IMG/VR virus record: IMGVR_UViG_3300031450_000216
Coordinates: 1 to 54,500 of that record
Origin: a virus
Taxonomy: Duplodnaviria; Caudoviricetes
DNA length: 54,500 nt
Direction: 5' to 3' (one strand)
Shown here: positions 21,651-48,301 of the stretch, piece by piece
Numbering within the stretch: the first letter of the stretch is position 1
Layout of the letters: every line of letters starts with the position of its first letter
Translations under genes and position numbers: made by a program
Notes under the pieces: model-generated
What the model was told of the DNA's origin: nothing
What the model saw: only the letters and a program-made list of their open reading frames with translations
Databases searched by the model: none

Positions 21651-22601
21651 TCAATAGCGTAAAACTGCCGCTGGAAATCGGTTGGCTTCGATCTGCTGGT
21701 CGTACGAGATCACGTTCGAGACCTGCCAGCCGGCGCGGAAGACGACCCGCATGGCGACCATATCTTGCTGCGCCAGGTTATAGACAATGGCCCCGGTGTT
21801 ATCCTGGATGACCGCCTGATCGAGCAGCTTGTAGGTGATGTCCTGGCGCACGCCGACGATGAACTGCTCGCGCTCCATCGCCATCAACCGGACATTCGTG
21901 CCCGCCACGCCGCCAGTCGGGAACAGCCCGCGCATCGGATAGGCGATCGGGGAGCCATCGACCATGTTCAGGTCGGGCGCGAGGCGGTTCTCGTCCAGGC
22001 GCTCGCCCTGCGTGCTACGCGCGGCGCGGAATCGACCCTTTGCGCTCATCGCGGCCACGTAGCCGGTCGGTTCGTAGCCATCGGACTCCAAGAGCGCGAT
22101 GGCGGCGTCCAGGTCGCCGAAGAATGCGCCCGCCGCCGCGAGGCTGGCCTCGGTGAAGCTGTTCCCCGCCGCCGCCGCCGCCGCGTTGATGCCGACCGGG
22201 TAGGATGCCGGGGCGTTGGTGCCGAAGAAGACCGCCGCGTCGAACGTGCGCCCGATCGCCTCCGCAAGGAGCGGCTGGATCTCGCCCCACACGTCGAATG
22301 CGGTGTCGTTGATGACCGCCTCCGGGATCGGGACGATCGCCGCGATCTCCTCGATATTGAGGTAGCGATTGGTCCAGTTCACTTCCGTGGTCTGCTTGAG
22401 CCCCGTGTCGCCCGTGACGAAGTAGGCGGTCGGGAGGGCGGACACGATCGGGATGCGGACCTGGGCGCGCGAGACGGGGATGCGACGAAACATGGTCAGC
22501 GCGGCGGATTGCTGCACGACGCGACTGATCACCCCGGCCGCCACTTCCTCGGGGATCAGTGCCTGCTCGTCGGTACGGGAGATCACATTGTTGAAAGCCA
22601 T
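21651..22601 (-). CDS. Major capsid protein (HK97 fold)
   Basis: LIPEEVA..EEIAAIVPIPE..AIGRTFDAAVFFG..NLAQQDMVAMR. Confidence 0.93.
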   Translation of the reverse strand: MAFNNVISRTDEQALIPEEVAAGVISRVVQQSAALTMFRRIPVSRAQVRIPIVSALPTAYFVTGDTGLKQTTEVNWTNRYLNIEEIAAIVPIPEAVINDTAFDVWGEIQPLLAEAIGRTFDAAVFFGTNAPASYPVGINAAAAAAGNSFTEASLAAAGAFFGDLDAAIALLESDGYEPTGYVAAMSAKGRFRAARSTQGERLDENRLAPDLNMVDGSPIAYPMRGLFPTGGVAGTNVRLMAMEREQFIVGVRQDITYKLLDQAVIQDNTGAIVYNLAQQDMVAMRVVFRAGWQVSNVISYDQQIEANRFPAAVLRY

Positions 22602-22657: not shown

Positions 22658-23263
22658 TCAGATTTGCCCGCGCCCGGCCATCGCCCGGATGCGGTCGTTC
22701 ATGGATGCCGCGATCGTCTCCCGTCCGCCCTCGCCCGCGTCGGCGCTCCCGGTGCGGCGGCTCTTGGCGACGAAGAGATCGGGCTCGGCCTTCTGGAGCT
22801 TGACGAGCAGCGCCTTGACGTTGCGGGGCTGGTCGCCGTCCCAGTCGTCGTCGCCCAGGTCCAGCAGGCGAATCAGGCGGGCGGGCGAGACGCGCGGCGC
22901 ATGGGCGAAATCGGCGGCATTCACCGTCTCCTCGATCGCGTCGCGCAGTGAATAGGACCGCTCGCGCTGCTGCGCCTGGGTCAACTGGCCCTCGATCTCC
23001 GCGATCCGCGCGTCACGCCGCTCGATCTCGGAGCGTTCGGCGTCCTGGCGCTCCTTCTCGGTGCGCTCGCGCTCGGACTTGAACGTGCGGAGCGGTTTGA
23101 CCTCTTTTTCCAGATCGCGCGCGCGCTGGCGCTCCTTGTCGAGCGCCGCTTTGAGCTTGGTCACATCGTTGCCGTCGTCGCCTCCCGCGTCGGCGGTACG
23201 CTGCGACTGGTCGCCCTGCTGCTGCTCGTCGCCCTGTTCGTCCTGCTGCTGGTCAGGCATCAC
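22658..23263 (-). CDS. Capsid scaffolding protein
   Basis: Acidic N-terminus, coiled coil (ALDKER), P.LF and MNDRIR C-terminus, upstream of MCP. Confidence 0.85.
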   Translation of the reverse strand: MMPDQQQDEQGDEQQQGDQSQRTADAGGDDGNDVTKLKAALDKERQRARDLEKEVKPLRTFKSERERTEKERQDAERSEIERRDARIAEIEGQLTQAQQRERSYSLRDAIEETVNAADFAHAPRVSPARLIRLLDLGDDDWDGDQPRNVKALLVKLQKAEPDLFVAKSRRTGSADAGEGGRETIAASMNDRIRAMAGRGQI

Positions 23264-23304
23264 GCCCCCCTTGCGACGGCATCGCGCCGTGTCATCCCGC
23301 GTCG

Positions 23305-23436
23305 GGCAACAGAAAAAGCGCCCCGCTGTCGCGCGGCACGCTCGGTGCTGCGGACAATCGGGGCGCTACGTCGCTGCGACGCGGTGCCTATTTCGATACT
23401 GCTGTTAGTTTAGGGCTAAACCTTCCGCTATGTCAA
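23305..23436 (-). promoter_or_regulatory. Head-operon promoter (TTGACA-N18-TAAACT) with hairpin plus U-tract leader
   Basis: -35 at 23436-23431, -10 at 23412-23407; AGCGCCCCG..CGGGGCGCTTTTT stem. Confidence 0.6.
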
Positions 23437-23464
23437 GCGGCGTCCATCTGCGCGATCTGTGGCG

Positions 23465-23519
23465 GCGTGGTCGGGCACCGGGGCTATGGGTAACACATAC
23501 TGCCTGGCCCGTGCCACGC
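23465..23519 (-). ncRNA. TIGR-like dual-spacer unit 5 (overlaps stop codon of TasA-like gene)
   Basis: gcgtggcacggg-CCA-GGCAGTATG-TGTTACCCA-TAGCCCCGG-TG-cccgaccacgc. Confidence 0.8.
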
Positions 23520-24410
23520 TCGCCACAGATCGCGCAACAGACGCTTCGCTAAGTGTCGCCGCGCGCGGTTGTCTACATGGACGTTCGGCGCGTCGGGCAG
23601 CTTCTCCCGCTGACGCTCCTTCTCCGCCAGATAGTAGGTGCGGTACTCGCCGTCGCGGTTATTCATCATCAGGAATGTGGCGATCACGTACATCGTGGAT
23701 CGCCGCGACGGGCTGTAGCCGTGCAACGCGGCTTCCTCGGGATCGGTGCGCTTGCCTTGGCGCTCGCCGTTGATCAGCGCCAGCCCCATGCGCTTCCAGA
23801 CTTTCGCCGGGTTGGCATAGTTGCTCAGGTCGCCGCACTCGCCGACGATCTGGGCGAGGCCGAGCGGGCCGATGCCGCGCACGCCCTCGACCCACGGCCA
23901 AACGGGTAACTCGCGCGCGAGGAGTTCCATACGCTTCTCTAACGGCTTGCGACTGGCTTCCAGCAACTTGCGCGCGTCCAGGAGCGGCGCGGTGTGGAGC
24001 GCGGCAACGGACTCGGCGTGGAGGAATTGTGCGAGGTCGGGGGCGATATCCTCAGCTTGGGTGACAACGATCAACTGATCGCCCCCGGCCTCGCTATCAT
24101 CTGCGGGATCGGCATCATGTCTCTGGTCATCAACCGCATAGTGGCTTCCCCCGCTCGATGCCTTCTTGCGTAACCGGGCGCGCTCCTCGGCTTTCAGCCC
24201 GGTATGGCGGCGATACACCGCCTCGATCTGGTTGTTCAGGCGCAACTCGGCGCGCAGCAGGTCTTGCCGCTGGCGGTGCGTCTCCTGAATCTCGGCGAGC
24301 AGGATGGCGGGGACGGCACGCTCCTGATGGTTGTCAGAGACCCTCTGGCCGTCCCCGCCCGATTGCGACATGTCGAGTATGGATACCACCGGCTCTGTGG
24401 TCGCAATCAT
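23484..24410 (-). CDS. TasA-like Nop/IS110 C-terminal-domain protein, no nuclease domain
   Basis: Coiled coil then WVEGVRGIGPLGLAQIVGECGDLSNYANPAKVWKRMGL..YRTYY..K..HVDNRARRHLAKRLLRDLW; no DEDD RuvC; TIGR-like units embedded. Confidence 0.82.
   Translation of the reverse strand: MIATTEPVVSILDMSQSGGDGQRVSDNHQERAVPAILLAEIQETHRQRQDLLRAELRLNNQIEAVYRRHTGLKAEERARLRKKASSGGSHYAVDDQRHDADPADDSEAGGDQLIVVTQAEDIAPDLAQFLHAESVAALHTAPLLDARKLLEASRKPLEKRMELLARELPVWPWVEGVRGIGPLGLAQIVGECGDLSNYANPAKVWKRMGLALINGERQGKRTDPEEAALHGYSPSRRSTMYVIATFLMMNNRDGEYRTYYLAEKERQREKLPDAPNVHVDNRARRHLAKRLLRDLWRAWHGPGSMCYP
24031..24094 (-). ncRNA. TIGR-like dual-spacer unit 4
   Basis: 16-bp stem-TCA-GTTGATCGT-TGTCACCCA-AGCTGAGGA-TA-stem (compensatory edge change). 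Confidence 0.78.
24103..24154 (-). ncRNA. TIGR-like dual-spacer unit 3
   Basis: gcgggggaag-CCA-CTATGCGGT-TGATGACCA-GAGACATGA-TG-ccgatcccgc. Confidence 0.8.
24306..24359 (-). ncRNA. TIGR-like dual-spacer unit 2
   Basis: ggcggggacgg-CCA-GAGGGTCTC-TGACAACCA-TCAGGAGCG-TG-ccgtccccgcc. Confidence 0.85.
24361..24408 (-). ncRNA. TIGR-like dual-spacer unit 1 (begins within the start codon)
   Basis: gattgcga-CCA-CAGAGCCGG-TGGTATCCA-TACTCGACA-TG-tcgcaatc. Confidence 0.85.
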
Positions 24411-24413
24411 CTG

Positions 24414-24983
24414 CTATTCCTCATCCGCCTGTCGGCGCAGTCGCTCCAACACGGCGTGCGGAATCGTTTTCTCGACGCACGACCCGTCGTGCATCGCTTC
24501 GTGGATCAACTCGAACCAGCGTGCCTCGTGACGGTTGGTCGTCTCCATGCGGCGGTAGTAATTCGCCGCGCCCAGGATGTCGGCGGGCGTGGCGTCGCCG
24601 AGGCGCTTGCCGCCCGGTAACGGATAATTATGTAACGTCCGCTCCACCATCGCCACGATCCCGAGGGTGCCATAGTCGGCCTTCTTTGCCTTGGGCGGTG
24701 CCGGGTGTGCCTGTTCGGGACGGAGCGGGAGCGGCGCGGGCGGCTCATGCGCGGCGCGGCGAAACGCCTGTCGCTGTTTCTGCGCCGCGCTGCGGATGGC
24801 AGACCAGAGCCCATCATCGATCATCGGCTCGATCAGTCGCTCGTATGTCGGGCGATCATCCAGCACCATCGCGCGCAAGACCAGGATCGCCTTGTCCCAA
24901 TCGCCGCCCACATCATCCAGGGCGATCCCGGCCAGCTTCGTCAGACCGTAACTCGATTCTTCCGGTTGTGATTGTGCCACCAT
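24414..24983 (-). CDS. Uncharacterised partner protein co-transcribed with TasA-like gene
   Basis: SD AAGGAGG; 3 nt gap to next ATG; helical C-terminal domain YPLPGGKRLGDAT..ARWF. Confidence 0.8.
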   Translation of the reverse strand: MVAQSQPEESSYGLTKLAGIALDDVGGDWDKAILVLRAMVLDDRPTYERLIEPMIDDGLWSAIRSAAQKQRQAFRRAAHEPPAPLPLRPEQAHPAPPKAKKADYGTLGIVAMVERTLHNYPLPGGKRLGDATPADILGAANYYRRMETTNRHEARWFELIHEAMHDGSCVEKTIPHAVLERLRRQADEE

Positions 24984-25015
24984 GCGCTTCCTCCTTGGCT
25001 ATGTATCCTGCAATA

Positions 25016-25076
25016 ATTCTAACGCACCGTTAGACTAAGTGCAACCCCTGTCGCTACAATACTAACGATGCGTTAG
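25016..25076. promoter_or_regulatory. Divergent promoters with two CTAACG-N3-CGTTAG operators
   Basis: Palindromes at 25019-25033 and 25062-25076; - strand TTGCAC-N17-TAGAAT; + strand TAGACT-N18-TACAAT. Confidence 0.8.
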
Positions 25077-25086
25077 ACTCCCCGAC

Positions 25087-25296
25087 ATGGATGAGGATCG
25101 ACTGATGGGCAGCAGGGAAGTCGCGGCGGAATTGGGGGTGCAGCAGTCGCGCGTGCGCCAGTTGGTATTGTCCGGCGCGCTCACCGGGCGCAAGATGGGC
25201 CGGGACTGGTTTTTCCTGCCGAGCGAGATCGCGCGCTATAAGCGGGAGCGCCCACCGCGCGGTCGCCCGCGCAAGCGTACTACGCCGAAATCTTAG
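25087..25296 (+). CDS. Excisionase-like (HTH_17) DNA-binding protein with C-terminal AT-hook-like RGRP
   Basis: LMGSREVAAELGVQQSRVRQLVLSGALTGRKMGRDWF..RGRPRK. Confidence 0.85.
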   Translation: MDEDRLMGSREVAAELGVQQSRVRQLVLSGALTGRKMGRDWFFLPSEIARYKRERPPRGRPRKRTTPKS

Positions 25297-25320
25297 GCCG
25301 AGCGCGCATCGTACTCGTGC

Positions 25321-25584
25321 TCAGTGTTGCTCGATCAACGATGCGAGGAGTTTCCGCCCTTCCCTGGCGACGATCTGGTGAACGCGCGCCTGTGTGATGC
25401 CCCCGCCGTAAGTCCGAGCGGTGTCGGCATAGGTCAACCCGTCAACAACGACGGCGCGCAGGATACGCCAATTGCGCTCATTCGCCATGTTCGCCGGGCG
25501 GGAAGCGGGGAAGATCGGGCGTAGCGCCTGCACAAGGGGAGCGAGACGTGCCCCGCGCCAGATCGTCGGGTCGCTCGTATCCAT
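25321..25584 (-). CDS. Sigma70 region-4-like HTH protein
   Basis: ERNWRILR..DGLTYADTAR..ITQARVHQIV. Confidence 0.65.
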   Translation of the reverse strand: MDTSDPTIWRGARLAPLVQALRPIFPASRPANMANERNWRILRAVVVDGLTYADTARTYGGGITQARVHQIVAREGRKLLASLIEQH

Positions 25585-25612
25585 CGCACATCCCCGTGCC
25601 GCGCACACAGCA

Positions 25613-25819
25613 TCAAGACGCCACCTTATAGCCCTCTTGCTCCTCATTATGCCACACCCGCACGCTCCCCTTGCCCCGCCTCCTGGGCGGCGTCGGCTCG
25701 TACCCGAGCAGACGATTGAGCGCGGCCAACTCCTGCAAGCGCGCCTGGCGCACCTGTTCCCAAAACGGGCGGGCGGGGTCGTCTGTGGCGAGGACGTGCG
25801 GCGTCGACTCGGGAATCAC
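25613..25819 (-). CDS. Small hypothetical protein
   Basis: GTGA overlap with upstream gene. Confidence 0.5.
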   Translation of the reverse strand: MIPESTPHVLATDDPARPFWEQVRQARLQELAALNRLLGYEPTPPRRRGKGSVRVWHNEEQEGYKVAS

Positions 25820-26055
25820 GCCTGCCCCCTCTCCGCCGCATCCGCCGCCGCGATCAGCGCCCGATCCACCAAGGCGCGGCCCTCTGCGATCAATTCATGG
25901 GTGTCTTCGTGATCGTCCGTGAGGCGAATCAGCGCGACCGTCTCCCATATCGCGTGATCAGGCTGCGCCCGCACAGCGGCAAGCGCGGCGTCTTCGGTCT
26001 GATAGACTCCTATGCGGTTGGCGCTCTCGCACTCCCACAATTCATACACCGCCAC
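25816..26055 (-). CDS. Small hypothetical protein
   Basis: SD GGAGG, GTG start after MuF. Confidence 0.55.
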   Translation of the reverse strand: MAVYELWECESANRIGVYQTEDAALAAVRAQPDHAIWETVALIRLTDDHEDTHELIAEGRALVDRALIAAADAAERGQA

Positions 26056-26067
26056 GCTATCCTCCGC

Positions 26068-27117
26068 CTAATCCGCCGCCACGGCCTCGATGCCGCGTAG
26101 CACGTCCCGTAGTGGCCTTTGCACGGTGAATGGACCCCACTGGTTGCGCCCTTCCTCCACGAAGTCGCTCAGGGCGATCTCGCCGCGTTGGAATGGTTCC
26201 CACGCGCCCACGGGGATCATTTGCCGCTGCGTCGCCTCCGGTTGCCGGTCGAACCAGTCCGGCCCCGTCTCCGGTTGCGGCACATCGGGGATACCGGGAT
26301 AGCCGAGTTCCGCCCAACTGCGAACTACGGGCGTCAGGGCGCACCTACACGAGGCGTGGCGGCCAAAGTCCTGACCGAGCGGGTAGATTTTGCCATCCAG
26401 CGCGAGACAGGCCAGACATGTTCTCGGTCCGTGCGCCGCGATGCGTTTATACGCCGTGATCACATCGTTCTGTCGGTATGCGGCCAACGTGCTATCGCGA
26501 TAGGCATCCAACATGGACGATCGCGCCAGTCGCAACGCCCGATTGCGCCCCAATCCCTCGACCGCCGCTTCCAGCGCCTTCGCCGCGATCCTGGGCGACT
26601 GCCCACGCACCAGCGCCGTCGTCAGCGCCTCCGACGTCGCCGCCCTGGCGTCCGGGCCGAATGTTGACAAGAGCGTCCCCAACGGCTGCCCGTCCCCAAG
26701 CGCCCCCACAAGCTGCTGCAACGCCTCGACCGGCACCCGGTCCCACGCCACGACCACGCCGGGCGGTGGGGGACCGAGCGCCGCGCGGGCCAGCGCTTCC
26801 GCGTGACTCGCCGCCGCCGCGATCGCCGCCGCCTGCTGCTGCCGGACCAGCGGGCCCGCTTGCACCGCCAGCCCGTTGATCTGCGCCTCCACTTGATCGA
26901 GCAATGCCCGGTAACGTCGCTCTTTCGCGAGCCACGCCGCATCGATCGTCTCGCCGCGTGCCTGCGCCTGCTCGATGGCGTCCGTGAGCGCGCGGAGATC
27001 GCGGCTGATCGCGTCCCACGCCTGCCCGTAGGCGGTGACGAGACGCGCGGCGGCGTCCGCCTCCAGGCGGGCACGTTCGGCGCGTTGCTGCGCGGTCAGG
27101 ACGGCGAGGGTCGTCAT
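26068..27117 (-). CDS. Head morphogenesis / minor capsid protein (MuF, SPP1 gp7-like)
   Basis: RALRLARSS..RTCLACLALDG..HASCRCALTP. Confidence 0.9.
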   Translation of the reverse strand: MTTLAVLTAQQRAERARLEADAAARLVTAYGQAWDAISRDLRALTDAIEQAQARGETIDAAWLAKERRYRALLDQVEAQINGLAVQAGPLVRQQQAAAIAAAASHAEALARAALGPPPPGVVVAWDRVPVEALQQLVGALGDGQPLGTLLSTFGPDARAATSEALTTALVRGQSPRIAAKALEAAVEGLGRNRALRLARSSMLDAYRDSTLAAYRQNDVITAYKRIAAHGPRTCLACLALDGKIYPLGQDFGRHASCRCALTPVVRSWAELGYPGIPDVPQPETGPDWFDRQPEATQRQMIPVGAWEPFQRGEIALSDFVEEGRNQWGPFTVQRPLRDVLRGIEAVAAD

Positions 27118-48077: not shown

Positions 48078-48301
48078 AGCGCCGTGCCTTCCGCGCACGG
48101 AAAAGCCCCCAGGGTGGGTCGCTGCAAGCTGCTTAGGAATGCAGAACCACCCTGGGGGCTAATCCAGAATAGCACACCTTCTCCCGTTTGGGAGGAAGTG
48201 CGGAAGTATTCGTTTGTGGGTGTTGAGAACTGGCAGCTTGCGCGACCACGTTCTGCATTCCTAAGCCTAGCAAGCATAGCCGATTTGCCCTTCCCTGTCA
48301 A
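48078..48301 (-). promoter_or_regulatory. Promoter TTGACA-N17-TATGCT plus ~190-nt structured attenuator-like leader
   Basis: -35 at 48301-48296, -10 at 48278-48273; 17-bp inverted repeat 48131-48147/48250-48266; terminator-like stem ending GGGGCTTTT. Confidence 0.7.

What the first reader, a model, noticed from the sequence alone, without database searches (positions are those of the whole stretch)
24031..24410. Guide units sit only at protein-tolerant positions, implying dual coding and built-in autoregulation
Seen: units 1-2 encode the first ~35 residues before the first helix (LLAEIQETHRQRQDLL). Units 3-4 encode the G/D-rich insert between the two coiled-coil helices. Unit 5 straddles the stop codon. 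The frame stays open through all of them. Inference: spacer turnover must avoid stop codons and frameshifts, and excising the guides would destroy the mRNA. Unit 1 begins within the ATG, so protein binding could also block translation, giving a negative feedback loop that fixes the protein:guide ratio.
Basis: partly seen in the sequence, partly recalled or inferred. Interest (0 to 1): 0.8.

Follow-up and report, generated by a model that had tools for sequence, protein, structure and literature searches.

The report
Guide RNAs embedded inside tasA gene
A prophage gene for a small RNA-guided DNA-binding protein (TasA of the TIGR-Tas family) carries all five of its own guide-RNA hairpins inside its coding sequence, an arrangement that a 2026 preprint has already described for this family.

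Summary
The ORF 23484-24410 (minus strand, 308 aa) holds five hairpin units. Each has a variable stem and a 30-nt loop that reads box C (CA), 9 variable nt, a conserved 9-nt core starting TG and ending CCA, 9 variable nt, then T. Units 1-2 encode residues 1-35, and unit 1's stem starts at the G of the ATG. Units 3-4 encode residues 86-127, between the two long helices. Unit 5 (23466-23518, outside the given coordinates) straddles the TAG stop.

This is a stem-loop TIGR array, and the protein is a nuclease-less Tas protein (TasA). Its profile hits solved TasR 9MTY at E 3.6e-20, and Foldseek ranks TasR and TasH first. In 149 distinct homologous loci I found 656 such units on the tas strand and 7 on the opposite strand. 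In-frame units fall at the same three sites. Spacer-coded residues are 6-9% identical across homologues, against 68% for the core, and the AF2 model has low confidence exactly there.

Dual coding is supported. Autoregulation is untested, and a start codon inside a stem is not general in the family. Xu et al. (bioRxiv, Sept 2026) already report intragenic stem-loop tigRNAs in disordered Tas regions and a possible link between maturation and translation. This is a new member of a known kind.

The parts
23484..24410 (-). tasA: 308-aa nuclease-less Tas protein. Disordered N-terminus 1-34, coiled-coil helices 35-85 and 124-166 with a disordered insert at 86-123, Nop-type domain to about residue 300.
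   Evidence: ORF. Pfam Transposase_20 at residues 177-260 (E 1.5e-4), no nuclease domain. Profile against PDB sequences: TasR 9mty_A E 3.6e-20, TasH E 5e-4. Foldseek top hits are TasR and TasH, then IS110 recombinases, Prp31 and Nop5. AF2 model.
24360..24409 (-). tigRNA unit 1. Arms 24408-24400 and 24369-24361 (9 bp), loop 24399-24370, spacer A 24397-24389, loop repeat 24388-24380, spacer B 24379-24371. Encodes residues 1-17; the 5' arm starts at the G of the ATG.
   Evidence: (34.1 bits, E 1.6e-5)
24306..24359 (-). tigRNA unit 2. 12-bp perfect stem, loop 24347-24318, spacer A 24345-24337, spacer B 24327-24319. Encodes residues 18-35.
   Evidence: I17; 44 bits, E 1.1e-7
24102..24155 (-). tigRNA unit 3. 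Loop 24143-24114 carries the full box motifs, but the stem is degenerate, so it may be weakened or decaying. Encodes residues 86-103.
   Evidence: exact motif match; loop-only match, 12.9 bits, E 0.85
24031..24094 (-). tigRNA unit 4. 17-nt arms (94% complementary), loop 24077-24048. The closing pair is U-A instead of C-G. Encodes residues 106-127.
   Evidence: I6; 37.2 bits, E 3.4e-6
23466..23518 (-). tigRNA unit 5. Bulged stem (5 bp, internal loop, 5 bp), loop 23506-23477. The TAG stop at 23486-23484 opens spacer B. Encodes residues 298-308 and runs past the stop.
   Evidence: (27 bits, E 6.3e-4)
24418..24422 (-). Shine-Dalgarno-like GAGGA, 7 nt before the tasA ATG, lying inside the 3' end of the upstream gene.
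   Evidence: read
24414..24983 (-). Upstream partner gene, 189 aa, helical, no known family. Its TAG stop ends 3 nt before the tasA ATG. Found upstream of tasA on the same strand in 32 of 33 matching loci.
   Evidence: no family or fold match

Best explanation
The locus is a stem-loop-type TIGR-Tas system carried by a prophage. The 308-aa protein is TasA: a coiled-coil dimerisation domain plus a Nop-type RNA-binding domain, with no nuclease. The five hairpins are its tigRNA units. Each has a unit-specific stem that replaces the edge repeat. Its 30-nt loop reads box C, spacer A (9 nt), a 9-nt loop repeat that begins with box D (UG) and ends with box C (CCA), spacer B (9 nt), then box D.

Shown here: the whole array lies inside the tasA reading frame, and no other unit exists in the 54.5-kb window. 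The units occupy three sites: the N-terminal tail, the insert between the two coiled-coil helices, and the C-terminal tail across the stop codon. At least units 2, 3 and 4 must be translated.

Inferred from the published family: a TasA dimer binds one processed unit. The two spacers pair with opposite strands of an 18-bp DNA site, and the complex acts as an RNA-guided repressor.

Inferred, untested: the tasA mRNA, probably co-transcribed with the upstream gene, is also the only guide precursor. Cutting the units out would destroy the message. Unit 1 holds the start codon, so folding, TasA binding or cleavage there should lower translation. Guide and protein output would thereby be coupled.
For: Protein:
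- Profile of 41 homologues against PDB sequences: TasR 9mty_A E 3.6e-20, TasH E 5e-4.
- Foldseek ranks 1-10 are TasR or TasH chains, followed by ISCro4 and IS621 recombinases, then Prp31 and Nop5.
- AF2 mean pLDDT is 83.

RNA unit, within the window: see the observation check.

RNA unit, across the family:
- In 149 distinct homologous loci, hairpins with a perfect stem of at least 8 bp and a 30-nt loop numbered 226 in gene regions, against 2-9 at most other loop lengths and 7-48 at loops 31-44.
- 308 of 375 such hairpins carry the loop motif, which was not used to select them. All are on the tas strand and none on the other strand; 304 of the 308 lie within -1500 to +1400 of the gene.
- Loop profile from 342 units: C1 94%, A2 72%, T12 65%, G13 94%, C18 and C19 96%, A20 70%, T30 73%. 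Positions 3-11 and 21-29 are unbiased.
- This matches the published box D 'UG', box C 'CCA', 9-nt spacers, palindromic variable stems and 9-nt loop (PMC12045711 sections 4, 8, 9; bioRxiv 10.64898/2026.09.09.750476 section 7).
- Stems of 334 units defined by motif (and by at least 4 of 9 stem pairs) are Watson-Crick at 2522 of 3006 cells. By my rounding of the per-pair fractions, G-U outnumbers A-C by about 57 to 27 in the inner five pairs, as expected for RNA read from the tas strand.

Dual coding:
- Codon argument.
- 656 units in 101 of 149 loci, against 7 on the opposite strand. 355 lie inside the open tas frame.
- In-frame units map to residues below 40, 70-135 and 300 or above, with 2 strays among 354.
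- Units within 200 nt upstream of helix 1 are open in the tas frame in 141 of 158 cases, against 110 and 94 for the other frames. Median open length upstream of helix 1 is 270 nt, against 72 and 43.5.
- Spacer-coded residues are 6-9% identical, arm-coded 50%, core 68%.
- Low-depth contigs of a relative from another study differ from the window mostly inside the loops of units 3 and 5, with paired +1/-1 indels.

Published function: TasA acts as an RNA-guided repressor and BlTasA has intragenic tigRNAs.
Against: - There is no expression or processing data for this locus. No RNA run holds it.
- No target was found for any of the five spacer pairs in the window: hits at 3 or 4 mismatches are at the shuffled level. 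Family spacers show no excess of matches within their own loci.
- Unit 3 has a degenerate stem and scores only on its loop, so some units may be decaying.
- The alignment behind model R1 and the pair counts was chosen for perfect stems. That covariation is circular and is not used as evidence.
- Pfam's Nop family does not hit the protein; Transposase_20 is the only Pfam hit.
- A start codon inside a 5' arm is not general: 7 of 57 loci, and not enriched over the other frames. About a quarter of the near homologues lack N-terminal units altogether. Any feedback through unit 1 therefore cannot be essential to the family.
- Xu et al. state that sequence alone cannot tell co-transcription from internal promoters.
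Confidence: 0.85

Rival explanations
1. The intragenic units are fossils. An old array was overrun by the tasA frame, or inserted into it, and survives only as tolerated disordered peptide. Working guides, if any, come from elsewhere in the 38% of the provirus that the record lacks.
For: Unit 3's stem is degenerate. No targets were found. The record is estimated 62% complete. Many homologous loci do have extragenic arrays: 223 units upstream and 59 downstream of the open frame.
Against: Box motifs and stems are kept while the spacers between them are randomised, across homologues down to about 45% identity. That pattern indicates purifying selection on RNA features, not decay. Four of the five units score E 6e-4 or better against a model built from other loci. 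14 of 64 loci with full flanks also have units only inside the open frame. BlTasA intragenic units were recovered by small-RNA sequencing.
Confidence: 0.08
2. The recurring peptide (G-G-D-G, about 10 residues with D-T in the middle, A-V-P) is a protein repeat under selection for a protein function. On this view the nucleotide palindromes are a by-product.
For: The peptide motif recurs in the N-terminus and in the insert of many homologues. Xu et al. place the intragenic units of BlTasA in the wedge loop, a part of the protein that contacts the tigRNA.
Against: The same nucleotide unit occurs outside any tas frame (282 of 656 units). Inside the frame it occurs in at least two codon phases at each site class, and in the window units 1 and 5 are read in phases different from units 2-4. 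Stems differ from unit to unit yet stay complementary. Spacer-coded residues are at near-random identity, and the regions are predicted disordered.
Confidence: 0.04
3. The protein is the remnant of an IS110-type recombinase and the hairpins are DNA-level recombination or bridge-RNA-like elements.
For: The only Pfam hit is Transposase_20. PHROG hits are annotated transposase. IS621 and ISCro4 appear in the fold search.
Against: There is no DEDD/RuvC domain, with only 34 disordered residues before the coiled coil. TasR and TasH score far better than IS110 by sequence and by fold. The units are strand-specific, with 0 of 308 on the other strand, and show a G-U excess over A-C. Their anatomy is two 9-nt spacers between box C and box D, not the two internal loops of a bridge RNA. 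The window holds only one copy of the gene.
Confidence: 0.02

Closest known systems
Stem-loop TIGR-TasA systems with intragenic tigRNAs, e.g. Bifidobacterium longum BlTasA (Xu et al., bioRxiv 10.64898/2026.09.09.750476; sections 5, 7, 11, 12, 13 read)
   Same: Nuclease-less Tas protein. Stem-loop units with variable palindromic stems, a 9-nt loop between two spacers, and conservation limited to bases next to boxes C and D. [quoted passage not shown]
   Different: Here all five units found in the 54.5-kb window are intragenic, whereas BlTasA also has upstream units. Unit 1 includes the start codon and unit 5 includes the stop codon, details the preprint text does not mention. Box C here is CCA, as in dual-repeat systems, whereas the preprint reports CUU for the PateTasR box C and as a processing motif at stem bases. 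I could not check whether this locus is already in their catalogue of 20,096 loci, because supplements are closed and TIGRSafari is not public.
Peromyscus leucopus gut TasA stem-loop array (Faure et al. 2025, PMC12045711 section 9; PlTasA cryo-EM, bioRxiv 10.64898/2026.08.11.744272 section 5)
   Same: TasA with a stem-loop array. [quoted passage not shown] The N-terminal loop is unresolved or disordered, and there is a coiled-coil plus Nop core.
   Different: That array of 13 units is described as three subarrays separated by a ~450-nt intergenic region, not as part of the reading frame.
Dual-repeat TIGR-TasR/TasH (TaTasR PDB 9MTY; SpTasH 9W03 and others)
   Same: Best sequence and fold matches of the protein. 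Same box D UG and box C CCA, and same 9-nt spacers. The loop repeat here looks like a true loop repeat.
   Different: Those have conserved edge repeats, 36-nt tigRNAs, N-terminal RuvC or HNH nucleases and a Y/H processing loop. Here the stems are unit-specific and there is no nuclease.
IS110/IS1111 bridge-RNA recombinases
   Same: Related RNA-binding domain; hit by Pfam Transposase_20 and by fold search.
   Different: No RuvC domain and no bridge-RNA anatomy.

Membership tests
TIGR-Tas, stem-loop type, TasA subtype | Tas protein: coiled-coil dimerisation domain plus Nop-type RNA-binding domain related to solved Tas proteins | tested here: met
   Profile against PDB sequences: 9mty_A (TasR) E 3.6e-20, TasH E 5e-4. 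Foldseek ranks 1-10 are TasR or TasH. Two long helices followed by a helical domain in the AF2 model.
TIGR-Tas, stem-loop type, TasA subtype | No nuclease domain N-terminal to the coiled coil (this distinguishes TasA from TasR and TasH) | tested here: met
   Only 34 residues, predicted disordered, precede helix 1. No HNH or RuvC hit in Pfam.
TIGR-Tas, stem-loop type, TasA subtype | [quoted passage not shown] | tested here: met
   The loop profile of 342 units shows two unbiased 9-nt stretches around a 9-nt core that begins TG and ends CCA, with CA at the 5' and T(G) at the 3' junction. All five window units fit it.
TIGR-Tas, stem-loop type, TasA subtype | [quoted passage not shown] | tested here: met
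   Loop-length spectrum: 226 hairpins at 30 nt against 2-9 at most other lengths. 84% Watson-Crick cells in units defined by motif plus at least 4 of 9 stem pairs. Stems differ between units of one locus.
TIGR-Tas, stem-loop type, TasA subtype | Units in tandem, on the tas strand, next to or inside tas | tested here: met
   308 of 308 motif-bearing hairpins are on the tas strand, and 304 of them lie within -1500 to +1400 of the gene. With the looser unit definition, 656 units against 7 on the other strand.
TIGR-Tas, stem-loop type, TasA subtype | Units are expressed, processed and bound by the Tas protein | not testable with these tools
   No listed sequencing run that holds the stretch is RNA. 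Needs small-RNA sequencing or pull-down.
TIGR-Tas, stem-loop type, TasA subtype | Tandem-spacer recognition of an 18-bp DNA target | tested here: inconclusive
   No match better than the shuffled level in the window. No own-locus excess across the family. One exact 18/18 cross-locus match.
IS110-family bridge-RNA recombinase | N-terminal DEDD RuvC-like catalytic domain | tested here: not met
   No such Pfam hit. Only 34 disordered residues precede the coiled coil. The PHROG transposase profiles align only from their position 78 or 129 onward.
CRISPR array | Identical direct repeats separated by spacers | tested here: not met
   No direct-repeat family or tandem repeat in 23000-25500. Stems are unit-specific inverted repeats.

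The most novel reading that the evidence does not exclude
In this clade the tasA message is the sole guide precursor. Every guide is cut from the coding sequence, and the first unit holds the start codon while the last holds the stop codon. Each transcript would then either be translated or be diced into five guides. TasA binding to unit 1 would set the ratio, giving an RNA-guided effector with built-in stoichiometric feedback, possibly shared with the translationally coupled upstream partner gene of unknown fold. Spacer change would have to pass a coding filter (no stops, no frameshifts). That filter fits the paired +1/-1 indels seen in a relative.
Probability: 0.3. Interest if true: 0.55.

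Novelty: new member of a known kind. Interest (0 to 1): 0.33.

Why it matters
The locus is a compact natural example of one stretch of nucleic acid serving both as guide RNA and as coding sequence for the guide's own effector. How intragenic tigRNAs are made (processing of the mRNA or internal promoters), and whether this couples guide and protein levels, is stated as open in the 2026 preprint.

This locus is a clean test case. All five units are intragenic, the start and stop codons lie inside units, the gene is small (927 nt), and there is a conserved partner gene. The family statistics gathered here add independent support to the published description: three permitted sites, frame openness near helix 1, and spacer-coded residues at random-level identity. 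They add no new principle.

Tried and rejected
- My first reading (note 1) that 'unit 5 straddles the stop' was wrong was itself wrong. I had looked for a stop near 24031. The unit is at 23466-23518.
- Rfam at gathering thresholds: no match in the window.
- Tandem Repeats Finder: nothing relevant.
- Phage GenBank collection by protein: one weak hit, 31.6% identity over 39% of the query.
- First viral scan with the single protein: none.
- Target search for the five spacer pairs in both possible tandem arrangements: 2 hits at 3 mismatches and 6 at 4, against shuffled means of 0.75 (3 or fewer) and 7.6 (4 or fewer). Three of the hits are the units themselves. No target in the window.
- Own-locus targets across 656 units: 7 hits at 2 mismatches against 3 for shuffled spacers. 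No signal.
- A sixth candidate unit inside the Nop domain (loop 23697-23668; I12). It has an exact box motif and a 9-bp outer stem, but the register is broken by a 2x6 internal loop. R1 does not list it at E up to 10, and no homologue has a unit at that site. Treated as chance or relic.
- Covariation counts on alignment A2: discarded as evidence, because the rows were picked for perfect stems.
- A looser first unit definition gave 751 units against 240 on the control strand and was dropped.
- No RNA holder was listed for the stretch. The four DNA runs were laid as contigs only. Two of them may be the source of this DNA.
- Partner protein: no Pfam hit (best E 0.017, below cut-off), no PHROG hit (0 of 38 members), no PDB sequence hit (best E 0.55). 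Foldseek pdb best E 3.4 and VIA wide best Z 4.9. ParB-likeness, as published for some TasA partners, could not be shown. This absence is inconclusive.
Supplements of the papers are closed and were not requested. They may list this locus or the partner gene.
Full report
**What is there**

The window is a 54.5-kb provirus record, 67% G+C and estimated 62% complete. On the minus strand an ORF of 308 codons runs from the ATG at 24410 to the TAG at 23486-23484. It lies between a Mu-F-like head-morphogenesis gene (26068-27117) and a probable scaffold gene (22658-23263, function inferred only from its position beside the capsid gene; no family hit) plus a major-capsid gene (21651-22601). Its only Pfam hit is Transposase_20, the C-terminal domain of IS110 recombinases (residues 177-260, E 1.5e-4). 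No nuclease domain is detected.

**The repeated unit**

A scan of the whole window found six hairpins with perfect stems of at least 8 bp and a loop of exactly 30 nt. Three of them, the only ones with stems of 9 bp or more, lie in 24031-24410 (also I6 and I17).

I fetched 168 loci that encode homologues: 80 metagenomic, 77 viral and 11 genomic. Of these, 149 are distinct.
- In their gene regions, 30-nt-loop hairpins numbered 226, against 2-9 at most other loop lengths and 7-48 at loops 31-44.
- They cluster just upstream of and inside the 5' part of the gene, and again at its 3' end.
- The loops share a profile that was not used to pick them: C-A, nine unbiased positions, T-G, four semi-conserved positions, C-C-A, nine unbiased positions, T. 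The stem bases next to the loop are G-[G/A]-C and G-[T/C]-C.
- 308 of 375 hairpins carry this motif, all on the strand of the gene.
- In 334 units defined by the motif (plus at least 4 of 9 stem pairs), 84% of stem cells are Watson-Crick. By my rounding of the per-pair fractions, G-U outnumbers A-C by about 57 to 27 in the inner five pairs. This fits RNA transcribed from the gene's strand.

**Identification**

The anatomy is that of a stem-loop TIGR array.
- Faure et al. (PMC12045711; sections 4, 6, 8, 9, 24 and 44 read) define box D as UG and box C as CCA. They describe 9-nt spacers A and B that pair with opposite DNA strands.
- They also describe a second array type in which variable palindromic stems replace the edge repeats.
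- Xu et al. (bioRxiv 10.64898/2026.09.09.750476; sections 5, 7, 11, 12 and 13 read) add that the loop between spacers is mostly 9 nt. Stem conservation is limited to bases next to the boxes.

The protein fits the family.
- A profile of 41 homologues hits the solved TasR (9mty_A) at E 3.6e-20 and TasH at 5e-4.
- The depositors of 9MTY named that chain 'Transposase IS116/IS110/IS902 C-terminal domain-containing protein'. This explains the Pfam label.
- The AF2 model (mean pLDDT 83) is matched best by TasR and TasH chains, then by ISCro4 and IS621, then by Prp31 and Nop5.
- With only 34 residues before the coiled coil, the protein is a TasA.

**The window's units**

Model R1 was built from 140 units of other loci. 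It finds units 2, 4, 1 and 5 in the window at 44, 37, 34 and 27 bits. It finds unit 3 only by its loop (12.9 bits), because that stem is degenerate. The other rows shown as alignments lack the loop motif.

The residues covered are 1-17, 18-35, 86-103, 106-127 and 298 to the stop. The 5' arm of unit 1 begins at the G of the ATG. The TAG stop opens spacer B of unit 5.

However, unit 5 lies outside the coordinates given, and the ORF is three times longer than those coordinates suggest.

**Is it really dual coding?**

For the internal units the answer is yes by necessity. Helix 1 (residues 35-85, with invariant R48, D50 and A64) and the rest of the protein are in one frame across units 3-4, in the window and in all 41 aligned homologues.

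For the N-terminal units, the only in-frame ATG, GTG or TTG codons before codon 56 are codons 1, 8 and 14, and all three are inside unit 1. Conserved residues 37-54 can therefore be made only by reading through unit 2. Codon 1 has a GAGGA 7 nt upstream, and the upstream gene stops 3 nt before it.

Across the family:
- I counted 656 units in 101 of 149 loci, with 7 on the control strand.
- 355 units lie within the open tas frame.
- These map to three sites only: before residue 40, residues 70-135, and after residue 300, with two strays among 354.
- Units within 200 nt of helix 1 are open in the tas frame in 141 of 158 cases, against 110 and 94 in the other frames. Units further upstream show no frame preference. 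The family therefore mixes translated proximal units with ordinary non-coding arrays.

The AF2 model has block-mean pLDDT 44-57 over residues 1-30 and 91-120 and below 50 at 304-308, and 89-98 over most of the rest. Residues coded by spacers are 6-9% identical to the window protein across 40 homologues. Arm-coded residues are 50% identical and the core 68%.

Low-depth contigs of a relative from a different study differ from the window mostly inside the loops of units 3 and 5. Their single-base insertions and deletions come in compensating pairs (one contig each at depth 2-3, so treat with caution).

**How it probably works**

By analogy with the published systems, a TasA dimer binds one processed unit. 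The two 9-nt spacers pair with opposite strands of an 18-bp site, and binding represses transcription.

I found no target in the window and no excess of own-locus targets in the family.

It remains untested.

Against its generality:
- Only 7 of 57 loci with proximal units have an in-frame ATG in a 5' arm, no more than in the other frames.
- Roughly a quarter of the 41 nearest homologues lack N-terminal units.

In its favour for this clade, 26 of those 41 begin M-x(0-2)-[A/V]-T, as expected if the first arm starts at the start codon.

**Novelty**

[quoted passage not shown] They show BlTasA with two tigRNA-coding regions in its wedge loop.

A full-text search for 'tigRNA' together with 'intragenic' returns only that preprint. 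The preprint does not contain the words feedback or autoregul, and it mentions start and stop codons only in a figure legend.

The finding is therefore a correct, independent rediscovery. The locus is a new member of a known kind. The residual new points are:
- The array is wholly intragenic in the window. 14 of 64 fully flanked family loci also have units only within the open frame.
- The start and stop codons lie inside units.
- A partner gene is conserved upstream.

**Side observations**

- The 189-aa upstream gene recurs in 33 loci at E of 1e-3 or better, upstream of tasA on the same strand in 32 of them. Arrays often lie in the gap between the two genes. It has no family or fold match.
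- One unit of locus L094 matches 18 of 18 bases, in tandem-spacer arrangement, inside a gene of unknown function that directly precedes the endolysin gene of another phage contig, L133. About 0.04 exact matches are expected by chance (my estimate).

**Limits**

- The look-up of encoding contigs and paper supplements were closed.
- No RNA data exist for this DNA.

Noticed in passing
window 24414-24983 (-): A 189-aa helical protein of no known family lies directly upstream of tasA; its stop is 3 nt before the tasA ATG. It recurs in 33 homologous loci (E of 1e-3 or better), upstream of tasA on the same strand in 32 of them. It is not detectably ParB-like, unlike the published TasA partner (tasParB). 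Its AF2 model has pLDDT 85 and pTM 0.42, with two helical halves.
   Followed up: partly
L094:5840-5890 and L133:8525-8542: Spacers A and B of one unit at the 3' end of tasA in L094 match 18 of 18 bases (A followed by the reverse complement of B) in another phage contig. The match lies inside a phrog_2524 gene of unknown function that directly precedes and overlaps the endolysin gene (phrog_465). By my estimate about 0.04 exact matches are expected by chance. Across all loci there were ten matches with 1 mismatch or fewer (about 8 independent), against 0 in one shuffle. This is a possible hint of targeting between phages.
   Followed up: partly
window 23650-23711 (-): Inside the conserved Nop-domain coding region there is an exact box C/box D motif match (CCA, 9 nt, TG, 4 nt, CCA, 9 nt, TG) flanked by a 9-bp outer inverted repeat. 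The stem register is broken, the covariance model does not report it, and no homologue has a unit at that site. Probably chance or a relic.
   Followed up: yes
window 23400-24500, runs X3 and X4: Contigs of a relative from a different study (rock metagenome by its record) differ from the window mainly inside the loops of units 3 and 5, with compensating single-base indels. The flanking coding sequence is much less changed. Depth is 2-3, with one contig each.
   Followed up: partly
window 25087-25296 (+), 25321-25647 (-), 25816-26055 (-): Between the Mu-F-like head gene and the partner/tasA pair sit an HTH_17 (excisionase/MerR-like) gene on the opposite strand, a small protein with a weak sigma-70 region 4 hit, and a 79-aa ORF. 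None of these genes, nor the head genes, is shared with the other tasA loci (0 of 149). The partner-tasA pair therefore looks like a mobile two-gene cassette dropped into a head module.
   Followed up: partly
window 23407-23436 (-): A promoter-like site (TTGACA, 18 nt, TAAACT; 10 of 12) lies just downstream of unit 5 and upstream of the probable scaffold gene (function inferred only from its position beside the capsid gene). This is a consensus match only.
   Followed up: no
window 48104-48160: A perfect 14-bp inverted repeat with a 29-nt loop that lacks the tigRNA loop motif. Not examined further.
   Followed up: no
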